In this document: positions 27,392 through 43,204 of the stretch, in pieces
Layout: each line of letters starts with the position of its first letter
How positions within the stretch are numbered: the first letter of the stretch is position 1
Assembly (NCBI GenBank): GCA_964486045.1
Contig: CAZALK010000007.1
Location: 96,001 to 160,000 of the forward strand
DNA length: 64,000 bases
Source of the DNA: an uncultured archaeon
Lineage (GTDB): Archaea > Asgardarchaeota > Lokiarchaeia > Sigyniarchaeales > SOKP01
Direction of reading: 5' to 3'
Program-made: the position numbers and the translations under genes
The notes under the pieces: generated by a model
Databases searched by the model: none
Seen by the model: the letters and a program-made list of their open reading frames with translations, nothing else
What the model was told of the DNA's origin: nothing

Positions 27392-27562
27392 ACATCAATT
27401 TCACTACTTTTCTAATATTATATTTATCGATATTGTATAAATCAATTACTTTTTTTTCAGAAAATACTGTATATTTACTATTTTTAAAAGGATAGTTACT
27501 TCAGCTATAAAAAGATAGTTTTATTTAGTGTCCAATTCAATTAGTATAGAAGGTGAATTGTT

Positions 27563-28642
27563 TTGACGCTAAAAACGAATATTACAGAAATGTTTGGAAT
27601 TAAGCATCCAATCGCAAATGCGGCTATGGGCCCTTTTAGAACAACTGAAATGGCAATTGCAGTCTCAGAGGCTGGTGGACTTGGCATGATCTCTCATGCA
27701 AACCAATCTATGGATGGTAGGGAATTAGATGCGATTGTTGCTATGAAGAAAAATCTTGATTACGTCGTTGAACATACTGAGGGAATTTTTGGATTCAATG
27801 TAAGAACTTCGAGATTAACTATAAATTGTGATAAATTGATTTCCGAAACCTCAAAGCATATAATAGAAAATCCCAAACTGAAAGAACAATGCCTATACGC
27901 GCTCACTAGTGCAGGTTCAGCATCAAGAATGCCCCAAAACAAAGATTTTCAAAAATTACGGGAAAATTCACAGATTAAACACTTCCATGTCGCACCTGCA
28001 CTTTGGTTAGCAGATAAATGTGTGGCTGCGGGATGTGACGGGCTTGTTGTCACCGGTTTTGAAGGTGGGGGACACCAATCATATGAAAAAGTCGGTGGCA
28101 TGGTTTTATTATAGCAAGTGCAGCAAAAGCACCCCGATATCCCAAAAATCGCGTGTGGTGGGTACGCCACGGGAGATGGTCTGGCGGCAGCTTTAGCGAT
28201 CGGCGCTGGAGGCGTTGCTATGGGATCGAGGTTCATCGCGTCGAAGGACGCCGAATTTCACGAAAACTACAAGAATGTAATACCACCGGCTAAAGCTCAG
28301 GATACGATTATAAGAACGGGAGGTTTAGGAACCATTAGGCTCTGGAAAAACAAATTTTCTTTAGCAAAGGGATTAGTAAAAAGTAAAGAAGAAAAAATGA
28401 CTGAGGAAAAATCACTACGGGATCACCGAACCGAGATCTCAAAGGAAGATCTTGCTGAAGAATTAAGAAAAGATGCAATCGCAGGTTTTGCAGCTTATGA
28501 AGGAGATGTAGAGAACGGTTATGTGTTATTAGGTCAGAGTATTGGTGTTATAAACAGTGTCGAGAGTGTTTCTGATATCATCGAAAGTGTTATTTCAGGC
28601 GCAGAAAAAGCTTTAAAAAAAGCTATAACTTATGTGGGATAA
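27563..28642 (+). pseudogene. Nitronate monooxygenase/FabK-like flavoprotein with in-frame TAG at 28112-28114
   Basis: Two same-frame ORFs join: G-EGGGH...MVLL*QVQQ...CGG-ATG-GLAAAL-GA-GV-MGSRFIAS. Confidence 0.85.
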
Positions 28643-39846: not shown

Positions 39847-40671
39847 CTACTTTTTAGTCGTTGTCAATTTGATTAATTTACATTGGCTAGTAATAAAGTA
39901 TCTAAATAAATGTTCATATCCTATAATCTGCTTTGGCATTCCGTTCTCTAGCCATAATCCTGATGTGTATTCTGGTGCCTCTTTTACTTGATCTAAGGTT
40001 GTCAGCAAAAATTCGTTATCCGAAATTAACAAACCGAAGGGAATAACATTGTCACCTTCTATTGAATGAATTGTCATAGAGACTTTTAATAATTTTTTGA
40101 TTTCCTCTTTTAAAGCTTCGTAATATTTCAATGCAATAATAAGTTGGATATTAGTAGAAAATTTCTTACTCCATAATTCTTTTAATACCCATTCATATCC
40201 TCCTAATTCATTCATAAGCAAATCTGGAGTAATAATGAAAAAAATGCGTGTTTCTGCACTACTAATTAATTCTTTTATCTTTTTTCTTATTTTAGATCTC
40301 GAATTTATGGCCCAAACACGAGGTTCTGATTCTTCTTTTGTTATCTCTAAGTCACTAATGATTTTTTCTAGTACTAAAGTATCTTCAATCCTCTCCTTAT
40401 ACTGGTCGCGTATAGTCTTGAAAATCCTGGGTATTGGAATCACTTGATAATTCGCACCCCTCTTAATGGGTTCTTTTTGAATAAAACCCTTATCTATTAA
40501 TCTATTTAAAGAATCATACACTCTAGCTCTATCTACTCCGGAATGTTTTGCAATATCCGCAGGGCTTAATATCTTATACTTACATAGAGTAAGTAAAACC
40601 TTCGAATCATTCTTCGTGAATCCTAATGATTGGAGTGCTTCCTCAATTTCAGATTCTTCTAACTCAGGCAT
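39847..40671 (-). CDS. TrmB-family transcriptional regulator
   Basis: LG-T..., SGVDRARVYDSL-RL--KG helix-turn-helix plus PLD-like C-terminal domain. Confidence 0.9.
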   Translation of the reverse strand: MPELEESEIEEALQSLGFTKNDSKVLLTLCKYKILSPADIAKHSGVDRARVYDSLNRLIDKGFIQKEPIKRGANYQVIPIPRIFKTIRDQYKERIEDTLVLEKIISDLEITKEESEPRVWAINSRSKIRKKIKELISSAETRIFFIITPDLLMNELGGYEWVLKELWSKKFSTNIQLIIALKYYEALKEEIKKLLKVSMTIHSIEGDNVIPFGLLISDNEFLLTTLDQVKEAPEYTSGLWLENGMPKQIIGYEHLFRYFITSQCKLIKLTTTKK

Positions 40672-41235
40672 ACTCAGGTTTCAAGAATTTAAACTAAAAT
40701 TATGTCAGTCTAATTTTATTATTATAATACAATAGTCAAATATCTTATATTTTAATTTATTTTTTTAGTAAAAATTTAGAGATTTCAGATTTCATTTTGA
40801 TTTTTGATACATTGCAGTTTTTCGCTCAATAAATTAACTGAAAGGCGGACTATTGTTATCTTTTTAAAAAAAAAAAAGTCATGGCGTGATTAAATAGATC
40901 ATGAAAATGTTATAATTCTGCTTTCAGCAAAAATTTAACAACTATTAATATTGGATCGTTTAAGTTTCAAAAATTTTTATTGAAACATTAATAATAGGTA
41001 AAAAACAATAATTTAAGAGTACAAGCTTTTATTTCCGACAAAATCAAAAAATAGTTTTTATTAGAAATTAATATCATATTAATAAACCGATCTAATTTTC
41101 GAAATTAACGATTCGAATTAAAATATCATCTAAAATTATTGATTCGAATCATAATATTTATATAATAGAAATGTGTAGTAATACTTAATTAACATCTAAA
41201 TTACAATCTTATATAAATAAGTTGGAGGAATAAAA

Positions 41236-41502
41236 ATGGCTAAAAAGAAAGCTCCTGCAAAAAAGAAGTCTGAAGGATATATTGCCAAAAACGTCTAAAA
41301 TCTATTTTTTCGTTGGTATGCTCCAATCCGCAGGCTTATGAAAAAAGAGGGTGCAGATTTAGTAGCAGCTGAAGCCCTTGATAAGCTAATTGGCTTCTTA
41401 GAAGGCAGTGCAGCGACGGCAACAAAGGAAGCTATAAAAGTCTGTAAAGAGGATAAGCGCAAGAGAGTAACTGCCGCAGATATTCGCGCCGCAACCCGCT
41501 AA
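41236..41502 (+). CDS. Archaeal histone with Lys-rich N-terminal tail, split by a 30-nt candidate intron (exons 41236-41289 and 41320-41502; 78 aa)
   Basis: GGAGGA SD at 41224-41229. The spliced product MAKKKAPAKKKSEGYIAKAPIRRLMKKEGADLVAAEALDKLIGFLEGSAATATKEAIKVCKEDKRKRVTAADIRAATR fits the HMf fold (API-R--K--GA--V; RK-V---DI). Confidence 0.93.
41290..41319 (+). other. Candidate bulge-helix-loop (relaxed BHB) mRNA intron
   Basis: AACGTCTAAAATCTATTTTTTCGTTGGTAT with an in-frame TAA at 41296-41298. Helix GCCA/TGGT with a 3-nt bulge; predicted cut sites coincide with the homology-defined ends. Confidence 0.8.
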
Positions 41503-41532
41503 ATAACTTTAGATTTCAAATATTAATGATAA

Positions 41533-41548
41533 TTTTTTTTCTTTTTTT
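41533..41548 (+). terminator. Oligo-T archaeal terminator after the histone gene
   Basis: T8-C-T7 tract 30 nt after the stop codon. Confidence 0.55.
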
Positions 41549-41925
41549 AATTTTCTTTCTAAATTGTGCTTGATTTTCTTTTACTCACTAATAATGGAAT
41601 AGGTGCACTAGGTGGTGAATCTAAAGACAATTTTAAAAAAAAGAAGGCTAAAAGAACATTATAAAATTAGTGCATAGGGATACGTATATGCACTTAGTCT
41701 TTCCAATAAAGAGGATTTGTCTTTAAAAAATTATCAGAAATGTCTCTTTTATTGAAAATTAAGATAGTTTTTATCAAGTTAAATAAAATATTTGTATAAA
41801 ACTAAAAATTAATTTTAATCAACCTTAGGCATATAATTGACTAAATTATTCAAGACTAAAAGAGGGTATATTTAAATTACTAAATCACTTTCTATTGTAT
41901 TGAGAGTATAAAAACCAGATCAATT

Positions 41926-43204
41926 ATGAAAGAGTTTAAAATTAATAAGTATTTATCATTGAGATTAGAAGATGAAAAGACAAATATCTATATCAACCAA
42001 AAGAAAACCGACAATGTAAATATTTATTAATTGATAGAATCAAATACGACGAAATACCAGAATTGGTTGAAAACTTTGAATCTGTGGATGAAGCAACACA
42101 AAACTCAGATCATTCTTTAGATAATAAGAAAGACGTGATACCACCAGAAACAGAATTTTGGGCGCACTGCTCGAATCTTCAAGTATGGGCGGAAAATAAC
42201 TATGATACACGCTTACTTCATATGTCAATAGCGTTTTCATTATTAAAAGAATTAGCAGAAGCGGGGATACGATGGCCAAAAGAGTATTTAAGGAAGAAAT
42301 TGCTAAACGCCTAGGAAGTGGCTATCCTGCCGTCGTTGATTTTTTAATTCTTGAAGGATTCGACATATTTTTGACTCATGAAGAACGAATAACCTCAGTT
42401 CTAGCACCGGAAGAAGCAGATGTCATCTTGAAGTTAGAGGAATTGACGAAAAAACCCTTTTTTCAATATTCTAACCTTGATGAAAGCTATTCAGATGAAG
42501 GTCCCTTTGAACAAAGGTTTGTCGTTAAAAACAATCATGTTATAGGTATTTGGATTCATTGGGCAAAAGAAACTCCTAGAAAACTCCCCGAGTGGATAAC
42601 TAAATTAAAACTGCTTAAAAGGCTTTATTATACAGGAAATAAAATTAAACATATACCGAAGTTAATATTAAAACTGAAAAGACTCGAGGTCTTACAGATC
42701 GATAGTTTTATTCTAGAAGAAATACCAACGACAATTAATAAGCTAAGATTACTCAAATCTCTAAATATACGAAGCGGTAGCTTGAGAATGATACCAGAGA
42801 CCATTGGTGGACTTTCCCACCTTAAATCTCTTTCCTTAGGCAGTAATTTGATTGACTTACCTATCTCAATTGGGAACTTGGAGAAATTAGAAGAATTAGA
42901 TTTATCTCATAACAAACTTAACAATATTCCAAATTTTATATTCAACCTTAAAAATCTTAAGAACTTGAACATCAAAAACAATAATTTAATAGCTCTTTCA
43001 GAGTCCATAAGCAAACTAGAAAAATTGGAAGAGTTAGATTTTAGTAGAAATCCAATAAGGAGTATTTCAGAATCACTTGTTGATATGGTAAAATTAAAAT
43101 TTGTATCTATTGATAAAATTCCCTCAACTGGTTCTAATATATCTATAATAAAAAAAATGAAAAAAAGAAAGAAAATTAGTGTTTTTGGTTATGTTGGTAA
43201 TTGA
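41926..43204 (+). pseudogene. Loki-type LRR protein with two frameshifts (~42008, ~42266)
   Basis: Three frames join: MKEFKINKYLSLRLEDEKTNIYIN / RQCKYLLI...EFWAHCSNLQVWAENNYDTRLLH...EAG / DTMAKRVFKEEI, followed by LRRs. Confidence 0.88.

What the first reader, a model, noticed from the sequence alone, without database searches (positions are those of the whole stretch)
41236..41502. Histone gene interrupted by a candidate endonuclease-spliced (BHB/BHL) mRNA intron
Seen: the frame from ATG 41236 reads MAKKKAPAKKKSEGYIAK-NV*NLFFRWY-APIRRLMKKEGA... Removing exactly 41290-41319 (30 nt) gives YIAKAPIRRLMK, which aligns without gaps to helix 1 of HMf-type histones (ELPIAPIGRIIK). The RNA can fold by hand as follows: central 4-bp helix GCCA(41284-87)/UGGU(41314-17); 3-nt bulge AAA(41288-90); inner stem ACG/CGU; AUG(41318-20) opening an internal loop; closing exon-exon pairs GGAU(41275-78)/AUCC(41326-29) and AAGUCUG(41266-72)/CAGGCUU(41331-37). 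Established: archaeal splicing endonuclease EndA cuts after the second nucleotide of each bulge. Here that means after 41289 and after 41319, exactly the boundaries defined independently by protein homology. Relaxed bulge-helix-loop motifs are cut by some EndA types, and such mRNA introns are known mainly from crenarchaeal cbf5. Inference: an Asgard chromatin gene needs tRNA-type splicing for expression. The intronic stop makes unspliced mRNA unproductive, a possible regulatory switch reminiscent of HAC1/XBP1, and gene callers would miss the gene.
Basis: partly seen in the sequence, partly recalled or inferred. Interest (0 to 1): 0.96.

Follow-up and report, generated by a model that had tools for sequence, protein, structure and literature searches.

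The report
Tiny tRNA-type intron splits histone gene
A histone gene of a marine-sediment Asgard archaeon is broken by a 30-base insert that has the shape cut by the tRNA-splicing enzyme, and it belongs to a family of such mini-introns in several protein genes, so ordinary gene finders miss or truncate these genes.

Summary
The frame from ATG 41236 carries one in-frame TAA. Removing 41290-41319 gives a 79-aa tailed HMf-type histone, and the hand-drawn fold is the computed minimum-energy fold.

On its own the fold is weak (z -1.5). The comparative evidence is strong:
- About 40 uninterrupted orthologs read ...GYIAKAPIRRLMKK..., exactly the predicted spliced product.
- Related inserts sit at the same site in at least two other species, with conserved ends but different hairpins.
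- At least eight further insert sites occur in histone genes of this genus.
- In nearly every case, one register has a 4-bp helix followed 2 nt later by the cut, and that register restores the ortholog residue.
- The inserts share one design: 1 nt, 9-position stem, 5-nt loop, 9-position stem, 4 nt, 2 nt, totalling 30 nt.
- Intron-bearing alleles are under strong purifying selection.
- The single-copy uL11 gene, a thiolase gene and a phosphorylase gene of the same genome carry the same kind of insert.
- The genome encodes two EndA paralogs and RtcB.

No RNA data could be obtained, so splicing is inferred, not shown. A regulatory role is untested.

Other first-stage notes of this scan had already flagged the other histone genes and further genes of this genome. 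I found no paper describing this.

The parts
41157..41166 (+). TATA-like box (TTTATATAAT) inside an upstream block conserved among orthologs; candidate archaeal promoter
   Evidence: Read directly. The same upstream block recurs in many same-genus loci. Promoter function is inferred.
41224..41229 (+). Shine-Dalgarno-like GGAGGA, 6 nt before ATG 41236
   Evidence: The same GGAGGA-ATG arrangement stands before the other histone genes and before orthologs.
41236..41289 (+). Exon 1: Lys/Ala/Pro-rich N-terminal tail, MAKKKAPAKKKSEGYIAK
   Evidence: The tail and the YIAK motif are conserved in uninterrupted orthologs.
41266..41337 (+). Distal exon-exon helices (41266-72/41331-37 and 41275-78/41326-29). 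They close a 5x5 internal loop instead of an adjacent helix h.
   Evidence: Minimum-energy fold. These codons are also present in intron-less orthologs, so the pairing is not itself evidence of selection.
41284..41287 (+). 5' strand (exonic) of the central 4-bp helix H: GCCA
   Evidence: It is the only one of 5 protein-compatible registers with 4/4 pairs.
41288..41290 (+). 5' bulge AAA; predicted cut after 41289
   Evidence: The cut rule was validated on the other introns.
41290..41319 (+). 30-nt mini-intron
41291..41313 (+). Intron hairpin in the family's 9+5+9 layout: stem positions 41291-99 and 41305-13, loop AUCUA 41300-04. Only 6 of 9 stem positions pair, the weakest of the 15 introns compared.
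   Evidence: BHB-constrained fold of -8.1 kcal/mol.
41296..41298 (+). In-frame TAA inside the intron; it ends the unspliced reading after 20 residues
41314..41317 (+). 3' strand (intronic) of helix H: UGGU
41318..41320 (+). 3' bulge AUG; predicted cut after 41319. It opens into an internal loop, which makes the motif relaxed (bulge-helix-loop).
41320..41502 (+). Exon 2: histone fold (alpha1-L1-alpha2-L2-alpha3) and stop TAA 41500-02
   Evidence: Pfam PF00808, E 6e-10; orthologs 88-97% identical.
41338..41502 (+). The 54-aa ORF that gene callers report instead of the gene (P0056); it lacks helix alpha1
41533..41548 (+). Oligo-T tract, candidate archaeal terminator
   Evidence: Read directly; function inferred.

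Best explanation
The 267-nt unit 41236-41502 is one gene for a 79-residue tailed HMf-type histone of a Promethearchaeota (Lokiarchaeia-like Asgard) archaeon. It is interrupted by a 30-nt mini-intron of the archaeal bulge-helix-bulge class.

Proposed mechanism. In the pre-mRNA, the last exon-1 bases GCCA pair with the intron's UGGU. A 3-nt bulge follows each strand of this 4-bp helix, and an intron hairpin stacks on it. The splicing endonuclease cuts two nucleotides 3' of each helix strand, after 41289 and after 41319. The enzyme here is probably a heterotetramer of the two EndA paralogs, a type that tolerates relaxed motifs. RtcB then joins AAA|GCU, giving YIAK|APIRR, and releases a 30-nt intron that is probably circular.

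Without splicing, translation ends after 20 residues.

The intron belongs to a family with a fixed design (1 nt + 9-position stem + 5-nt loop + 9 + 4 nt + 2 nt = 30 nt). This family has entered histone genes of this genus at many sites, and also other genes of this genome.

Shown here: the sequence, the fold, exact restoration of the ortholog protein, recurrence of the rule, the shared architecture, purifying selection, and presence of the enzyme genes.

Inferred: cleavage and ligation in vivo, the enzyme type, and the circular product.
For: 1. Orthologs. 19 same-genus and 10 same-order orthologs are uninterrupted and read ...GYIAKAPIRRLMKKEGA.... Across the genus, 40 of 43 other species with the gene have full open frames.

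2. Register. Of 5 registers compatible with the protein, only 41290-41319 has 4/4 helix pairs, and it gives the ortholog's K. The chance of 4/4 at a given register is 0.0255.

3. Other inserts. The same rule picks one register that yields the ortholog residue in inserts of two further G000 histone genes (two each), in their orthologs, and in other alleles of this gene. The joint chance for five independent cases is about 5e-7.

4. Architecture. A 9+5+9 hairpin is shared, with a mean of 8.2 of 9 stem positions paired in 15 introns, against 3.7 in shuffles.

5. Same site in other species. G049 (32 nt) and G004 (30 nt, no stop codon) have inserts at the same site with conserved ends and wholly different hairpins.

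6. Selection.
- Spliced coding sequences of intron-bearing alleles: pS 0.7-0.9, pN 0.03-0.09.
- L074 versus L075, which share the site-B intron: 14 synonymous and 0 nonsynonymous changes.
- All changes in the first intron of L005 and its two orthologs fall in the loop.
- An exon/intron double change, U.G to G.U, keeps helix H between L006 and L067.

7. Other genes of G000 interrupted the same way, with Pfam profile continuity across the junction:
- uL11, single copy, 28 nt.
- Thiolase, 30 nt.
- A thymidine/AMP-phosphorylase-like gene, 30 nt, where removal restores DKHS|TGG.

8. Machinery. Two EndA paralogs, each with N-terminal and catalytic domains; RtcB; and many intron-bearing tRNA genes.

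9. The insert stands unchanged in an independent contig at about 290x depth.
Against: - No RNA-level evidence exists: no junction read, no circular intron, no peptide.
- The fold alone is not significant (z -1.54).
- The 3' bulge is not closed by an adjacent exon-exon helix. It opens into a 5x5 loop, and the minimum-energy fold adds a fifth pair, U41283-A41318, that would shift the 3' bulge.
- The hairpin is the most degenerate of the family, 6 of 9 positions paired and -8.1 kcal/mol. Splicing could therefore be inefficient, or this copy could be starting to decay.
- G000 keeps three uninterrupted histone genes, so losing this one might be tolerated.
- Synonymous sites are saturated against the nearest relatives, so selection on the G000 branch itself cannot be measured.
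- The substrate range of Asgard EndA has not been tested biochemically, to my knowledge.
Confidence: 0.82

Rival explanations
1. The gene is dead or dying. A 30-nt insertion with a stop codon inactivated this histone copy, nothing removes the insert, and the three intact paralogs suffice.
For: - The insert is absent from about 40 congeners.
- Its hairpin is the weakest of the family.
- G000 has three uninterrupted histone genes.
Against: - Apart from the insert the frame is intact over 79 codons, with ribosome-binding site, promoter block and terminator in place.
- Related inserts persist at the same site in G049 and G004, and intron-bearing alleles show pN/pS of about 0.05-0.1.
- The insert's 3' end pairs with the adjacent exon in exactly the register that restores the protein. 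A random lesion has no reason to do so.
- The single-copy uL11 gene carries the same kind of insert.
Confidence: 0.06
2. The insert is neutralised by a mechanism other than EndA/RtcB splicing. Possibilities are translational bypassing (as in T4 gene 60 or yeast mitochondrial byps), stop-codon read-through, another RNA endonuclease, or excision at the DNA level.
For: - The insert is short and in frame, with a single stop just after a Lys codon.
- No RNA data exist to show which route is used.
Against: - There is no matching take-off and landing codon at the insert's ends.
- Sister inserts of 28, 29, 31 and 32 nt shift the frame or carry two stops, so read-through cannot serve the family.
- Orthologs lack the 10 residues that read-through would add.
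- No contig lacking the insert was seen at about 290x depth.
- The 4-bp helix with a 2-nt offset is specifically the BHB cut geometry.
Confidence: 0.05
3. These are two separate products: a 20-residue basic peptide (41236-41298) and a 54-residue truncated histone-fold protein starting at ATG 41338, as gene callers annotate.
For: - ATG 41338 exists in frame.
- Databases hold the 54-aa call for this and related alleles.
Against: - The 54-aa product lacks helix alpha1 of the histone fold.
- No Shine-Dalgarno-like motif precedes ATG 41338.
- In the L074 and L075 alleles the split Met codon leaves TTG (Leu) before KKEGA in the unspliced frame, and an ATG exists only after the BHB-rule cut.
- The exon-1 tail is conserved as part of one protein in about 40 species.
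Confidence: 0.03
4. It is an assembly or sequencing artefact of the metagenome-assembled genome.
For: The genome is a MAG with 7.8% estimated contamination.
Against: - An independent Logan assembly of run X1 is identical across the region at depth of about 290.
- Comparable inserts occur in assemblies from several unrelated studies.
Confidence: 0.01

Closest known systems
BHB intron in the cbf5 (pseudouridine synthase) mRNA of Crenarchaeota (Watanabe et al. 2002; Yokobori et al. 2009, as cited in PMC7714728)
   Same: A short intron inside a protein-coding frame. It folds into a bulge-helix-bulge type motif, it is removed by the tRNA-splicing endonuclease and a ligase rather than by self-splicing or a spliceosome, and its presence is patchy among relatives.
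   Different: - The lineage is Asgard, not Crenarchaeota, and the gene is a histone.
- It is not a single gene: there are five introns in three histone genes of one genome, plus uL11, thiolase and a phosphorylase gene.
- The inserts have a uniform size of about 30 nt with a fixed 9+5+9 hairpin.
- At least nine insertion sites lie within a fold of about 70 codons across one genus.
- Excision is not yet shown experimentally here.
BHB intron in the 5' UTR of HVO_1309 mRNA, Haloferax volcanii (PMC7714728)
   Same: An mRNA substrate of archaeal EndA. That paper states that by 2020 only this case and cbf5 were known outside tRNA and rRNA.
   Different: That intron lies in a UTR and does not interrupt the reading frame. 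It was shown in vivo and in vitro; this one is inferred.
Non-canonical tRNA introns of Asgard archaea (PMC11291895; bioRxiv 10.64898/2026.10.13.758758)
   Same: The same predicted enzyme and the same motif logic, with half of the motif supplied by exon sequence. Introns have been gained repeatedly and recently on terminal branches. Most genomes have two EndA paralogs, consistent with an (alpha-beta)2 enzyme.
   Different: Those papers treat tRNA genes only. Here the host RNAs are mRNAs, so the cut register must also preserve a reading frame.
HAC1/XBP1 unconventional cytoplasmic splicing (Ire1 plus tRNA ligase/RtcB) - my own knowledge
   Same: Protein-only, non-spliceosomal removal of a short mRNA intron by an endonuclease and a tRNA-type ligase. 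The unspliced mRNA does not give the full protein.
   Different: - The nuclease (Ire1, a kinase-RNase) and the RNA motif (paired stem-loops) are different.
- That system is a stress-regulated switch. No regulation is shown here, and the resemblance is functional only.
Translational bypass elements (T4 gene 60; byps of Magnusiomyces mitochondria) - my own knowledge
   Same: Short inserts of 27-55 nt that interrupt coding frames yet leave the protein intact.
   Different: Those need matching take-off and landing codons and stay in the mRNA. These inserts lack such codons and instead obey the BHB cut geometry.

Membership tests
Archaeal BHB/BHL intron (EndA substrate) | Central helix of exactly 4 bp between the two cleavage sites | tested here: met
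   GCCA 41284-87 / UGGU 41314-17, 4/4 pairs. It is the only such register among 5 that are compatible with the protein. The minimum-energy fold can add a fifth pair, U41283-A41318.
Archaeal BHB/BHL intron (EndA substrate) | 3-nt bulge at the 5' splice site, flanked by an intron helix h' | tested here: met
   AAA 41288-90, followed by ACG/CGU and a 9+5+9 hairpin with 6 of 9 positions paired.
Archaeal BHB/BHL intron (EndA substrate) | 3-nt bulge at the 3' splice site, closed by an adjacent exon-exon helix h (strict hBHBh') | tested here: not met
   AUG 41318-20 opens into a 5x5 internal loop, and the nearest exon-exon pairs start at 41278/41326. This is therefore the relaxed bulge-helix-loop form. 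Sister introns such as the first intron of L006 and the alpha2 intron of G004 do have the strict form.
Archaeal BHB/BHL intron (EndA substrate) | Cuts 2 nt into each bulge give a functional joined product | tested here: met
   The joined frame equals about 40 uninterrupted orthologs. The same rule restores ortholog residues in about 20 other inserts.
Archaeal BHB/BHL intron (EndA substrate) | The host encodes an endonuclease type able to cut relaxed motifs, and a ligase | tested here: inconclusive
   Two distinct EndA paralogs, each with N-terminal and catalytic domains, and RtcB are present. Two paralogs fit the (alpha-beta)2 type, but subunit roles, the specificity loop and activity were not examined.
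Archaeal BHB/BHL intron (EndA substrate) | Excision and ligation seen in RNA (junction reads, circular intron, in-vitro cleavage) | not testable with these tools
   No RNA run was listed for this stretch.
HMf-type archaeal histone (Pfam PF00808) | Histone fold alpha1-L1-alpha2-L2-alpha3 matching the family profile over its length | tested here: met
   Exon 2 matches profile positions 6-64 of 65, E 6e-10, above the curated cut-off. The 54-aa ORF alone lacks alpha1.
Tailed Asgard histones | Lys-rich N-terminal extension joined to the fold in one polypeptide | tested here: met
   In uninterrupted orthologs the MAKKKAPAKK...GYIAK tail is continuous with APIRR. In G000 it is continuous only after removal of the intron.
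HAC1/XBP1-type regulated unconventional splicing | Ire1-type nuclease, paired stem-loop sites and stress-dependent splicing | not tested
   No search for Ire1 was run, and no expression data exist. This is a functional analogy only, and I do not claim membership.

The most novel reading that the evidence does not exclude
This genus of Asgard archaea harbours a mobile or repeatedly copied family of about 30-nt BHB mini-introns with a fixed module: a 9-bp stem, a pentaloop that is mostly RNYUC, and a 4-nt guide that pairs with the exon just upstream of the insertion point. The family invades protein-coding genes and turns over between close species, and histone genes are hot spots. Supply of chromatin proteins, and of some essential proteins such as uL11, would then depend on the tRNA-splicing enzymes and could be gated by them.
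Probability: 0.45. Interest if true: 0.92.

Novelty: new variant of a known kind. Interest (0 to 1): 0.86.

Why it matters
Introns removed by the tRNA-splicing endonuclease are textbook for archaeal tRNA and rRNA. In protein-coding frames, the literature I could search knows essentially one case, cbf5 (PMC7714728). Here the closest prokaryotic relatives of eukaryotes show such introns in several protein genes, including chromatin genes and a ribosomal protein gene, and the introns differ between sister species.

If splicing is confirmed, three things follow.
1. Interrupted protein genes and protein-only mRNA splicing would be a regular feature of some Asgard archaea. This bears on how intron-tolerant the ancestors of eukaryotes were, and on the origin of RtcB-dependent mRNA splicing.
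2. Gene catalogues of these genomes are systematically wrong. Genes are truncated, split or called pseudogenes; this histone is filed as a 54-aa fragment.
3. The fixed 30-nt design and the exon-matched 4-nt guide give a concrete handle on the open question of how BHB introns enter genes.

Tried and rejected
- RNA evidence. No RNA holder was listed for the region or for the gene alone, so expression and splicing could not be examined. Read laying could only use DNA contigs.
- X2 contig. From the listed differences I reconstructed an allele without the site-A insert and with a 30-nt insert after ...APIRRL. The difference list was truncated, so I treat this as a lead only. Independent loci L075-L078 do show that site.
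- Naive genome-wide scans. I required a 4-bp helix with a short inner stem and joining of open frames, with and without a codon-usage filter or constrained folding. None gave a peak at 30 nt. The background of adjacent genes and antisense open frames dominates, so I give no genome-wide count.
- Architecture-based scan. This gave only a modest excess at 30 nt, 10 hits against 2-5 at 28, 29, 31 and 32 nt. The reversed-sequence control was uninformative because hairpins survive reversal.
- One scan hit, C8:124819, proved to be two adjacent ABC ATPase genes.
- Rfam at gathering thresholds finds nothing in the window.
- TAG recoding as an explanation for in-frame stops: there is no excess of TAG among single in-frame stops.
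- tRNA introns as called by aragorn do not obviously share the 9+5+9 design, and their boundaries are unreliable.
- Literature searches on BHB, EndA or mRNA introns together with Asgard, Lokiarchaeia or histone returned only work on tRNA and rRNA.

Full report
**1. What is in the sequence**

The + strand from ATG 41236 to TAA 41500-02 is one frame with a single in-frame stop, TAA at 41296-98.
- A GGAGGA motif lies 6 nt before the ATG.
- A TATA-like box sits in an upstream block that recurs in orthologs.
- An oligo-T tract follows the stop.
- Residues encoded by 41320-41499 match the archaeal histone family PF00808 over profile positions 6-64 of 65 (E 6e-10).
- Gene callers report only the 54-aa ORF from ATG 41338, which lacks helix alpha1 (P0056).
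Taken alone it is not significant (z -1.54).
- An independent Logan contig at about 290x depth carries the insert unchanged.

**2. The insert is not unique in this genome**

A search of the window's own genome (5.18 Mb, 45 contigs) with exon 2 found five more histone-fold loci. Two of them, L005 on contig C6 and L006 on C12, each carry two in-frame, stop-bearing inserts of exactly 30 nt, all at different positions. Three others are uninterrupted.

I reached this before consulting earlier notes of the scan. Those notes had flagged the same two genes and several non-histone genes.

**3. One cut rule fits all**

In each insert, four exon bases pair with four intron bases, and both cuts lie two nucleotides 3' of the helix strands. 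This is the BHB geometry.

I listed every register whose removal leaves a protein colinear with uninterrupted orthologs, which gave 5-9 registers per insert.
- In nearly every case exactly one register has 4/4 helix pairs. One insert, the site-B intron of L076, has a second 4/4 register, but that one lacks the inner stem.
- The register with helix and stem gives the very residue seen in the orthologs. Examples are K at this site, M at site B, H and R in L005, and V or L in the L006 group.
- Naive in-frame deletion would have given N and K in L005. The rule predicts H and R, which is what the orthologs have.
- Four cases have 3/4 pairs: site A in G049, G004 and L074, and the second intron of L038.
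- The background chance of 4/4 is 0.0255 per register. For five independent inserts the joint chance is about 5e-7.

**4. Orthologs and alleles of this gene**

- Nineteen same-genus and ten same-order orthologs are uninterrupted and read ...GYIAKAPIRRLMKKEGA..., exactly the predicted product.
- Across 54 species of the genus, 44 have the gene at this threshold. Only G000, G049 and G051 show a shortened frame. G004 fell below the threshold because it has two inserts.
- G049 (32 nt) and G004 (30 nt, with no stop codon) have inserts at the same site. The ends are conserved (gccaaa|a ... ggtat|gc) but the hairpins are entirely different.
- Further public assemblies from other studies carry a 29-nt frameshifting insert at this site (L079-81). 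Others carry a 30-nt insert that splits the Met codon after RRL, which I call site B (L075-78). One assembly carries both (L074, which is G051).
- G004 has another insert in alpha2, and G020 has one in alpha3 of a paralog.
- In all, at least nine positions are occupied within a fold of about 70 codons in one genus.

**5. Shared design**

When 15 of the 30-nt inserts are laid in register, all follow the same layout: 1 nt, a 9-position stem, a 5-nt loop (mostly RNYUC), a 9-position stem, the 4-nt helix strand, and 2 nt. On average 8.2 of 9 stem positions pair, against 3.7 in shuffles. This design explains the constant length.
- The window's insert fits the layout but is the weakest member: 6 of 9 positions paired, and -8.1 kcal/mol under BHB constraints against -13 to -22 for the strongest relatives.
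- The second introns of L005 and L006 have related hairpins although they lie 17 nt apart in the gene, and each has a helix strand matched to its own exon context.

**6. The interrupted genes are kept functional**

- Spliced coding sequences of intron-bearing alleles are saturated at synonymous sites (pS 0.7-0.9) but nearly unchanged in protein (pN 0.03-0.09).
- L074 and L075 share the site-B intron and differ by 14 synonymous and 0 nonsynonymous changes.
- Among L005 and its two orthologs, all changes in the first intron lie in the pentaloop.
- Between L006 and L067, an exon change (U to G, Ser to Ala) is matched by an intron change, so the helix pair goes from U.G to G.U.
- A random DNA lesion has no reason to carry a 3' end complementary to the exon in the one register that restores the protein. 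Either insertion depends on that pairing, or only insertions that can be spliced survive.

**7. Beyond histones**

Each case below was checked by continuity of the Pfam profile across the junction.
- The only uL11 gene has a 28-nt frameshifting insert: L11_N profile positions 3-25, then 27-58.
- A thiolase gene has a 30-nt insert with a strong strict motif: Thiolase_N positions 1-89, then 94-258.
- A thymidine/AMP-phosphorylase-like gene has a 30-nt insert whose removal restores DKHS|TGG.
- Unverified candidates are a mevalonate-kinase-like, a dodecin-like and an AIR-synthase-like gene.

I could not produce a reliable genome-wide count (see Tried and rejected). Even so, five introns in about 1.3 kb of histone coding sequence is far above any plausible genome average.

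**8. Machinery**

- There are two EndA paralogs of about 200 aa, each with N-terminal and catalytic domains. This is consistent with the heterotetrameric type that cuts relaxed motifs, as described in PMC5829648 and in bioRxiv 10.64898/2026.10.13.758758.
- RtcB is present.
- Aragorn finds only 31 tRNA genes in a genome estimated 99% complete, and 20 of them have introns.

**9. What remains open**

- No RNA data were available, so excision is inferred.
- The 3' bulge here is of the relaxed, loop-type form.
- Efficiency of splicing, any regulation and the way introns arrive are all unknown.
- The HAC1/XBP1 comparison is an analogy only.

**10. Novelty**

Full-text searches found only tRNA and rRNA work for Asgard archaea. 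One 2020 paper states that cbf5, plus one haloarchaeal 5' UTR, were the only mRNA cases known. Subscription journals are not covered by that library. I class the finding as a new variant of a known kind.

Noticed in passing
L005:1426-1725 (G000:C6, about 146.6 kb) and L006:1471-1770 (G000:C12, about 112.7 kb): Two further histone genes of the same genome each carry two 30-nt BHB-type inserts. In L005 they lie at 1478-1507 and 1638-1667. In L006 they lie at 1536-1565 and 1666-1695. Orthologs in G049 and G019 keep both L005 inserts.
   Followed up: yes
L071:1357-1384 (G000:C5, about 238.66 kb): The single-copy ribosomal protein uL11 gene is split by a 28-nt frameshifting insert with helix GCAU/AUGU. 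The Pfam L11_N profile runs 3-25 before the insert and 27-58 after it. Its hairpin is weak (-1.7 kcal/mol under constraint).
   Followed up: yes
L086 (G000:C3:186175, 30 nt) and L087 (G000:C7:186752, minus strand, 30 nt): A thiolase gene and a thymidine/AMP-phosphorylase-like gene are each split by a 30-nt insert of the same 9+5+9 design. Pfam profiles are continuous across both junctions.
   Followed up: yes
G000:C11:28707 (+, 31 nt); C11:93369 (-, 32 nt); C5:195271 (+, 30 nt); C23:3960 (-); C17:6250 (+): More candidate mini-introns from the architecture scan. They include one inside an ILFGE|HFVVYG motif (mevalonate-kinase-like), one in a dodecin-like gene and one in an AIR-synthase-like gene. 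None was checked by family search.
   Followed up: no
L084 (G004:C110), site A: In G004 the insert at the same site as in the window has no stop codon and is in frame (it reads KVSNLLKSGY). Annotation would read it through as a 10-residue insertion. The same gene has a second, 32-nt insert in alpha2 with a strict motif (-22 kcal/mol).
   Followed up: yes
window 41271-41830, as seen in run X2: A contig from a second sample of the same study matches the flanks closely (no X2 difference listed before 41271; 7 differences over 41830-42300). It differs heavily through the histone gene body, and 41489-41830 is replaced by 561 other letters. This looks like allele or cassette replacement at this locus, possibly with an intron at site B.
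   Followed up: partly
L005:1252-1806 compared with L037 and L038: The two-intron histone cassette (555 nt, about 90% identical) lies in unrelated flanks in G000, whereas G049 and G019 share their flanks. Its synonymous divergence (0.05-0.07) is far lower than that of the tailed histone between the same genomes (about 0.8). This suggests recent transfer or relocation of the cassette.
   Followed up: partly
window 27557-28642 (+), stop at 28112-28114: A nitronate-monooxygenase-like gene is broken by one in-frame TAG. By my recollection of the family motif, the TAG stands where a conserved Pro is expected. Aragorn also calls a tRNA with anticodon CUA on C1:126761, which is possibly an intron artefact. 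There is no genome-wide excess of in-frame TAG.
   Followed up: partly
G000 whole genome: Aragorn finds only 31 tRNA genes in a genome estimated 99% complete, 20 of them with introns and some with odd calls (Pyl, Stop). Many tRNA genes are probably hidden by non-canonical or multiple introns.
   Followed up: no
window 39847-40671 (-) and 42272-43204 (+): The neighbours of the histone gene are a TrmB-like transcription regulator upstream, on the other strand, and a leucine-rich-repeat protein downstream. The same neighbours appear in related contigs.
   Followed up: no
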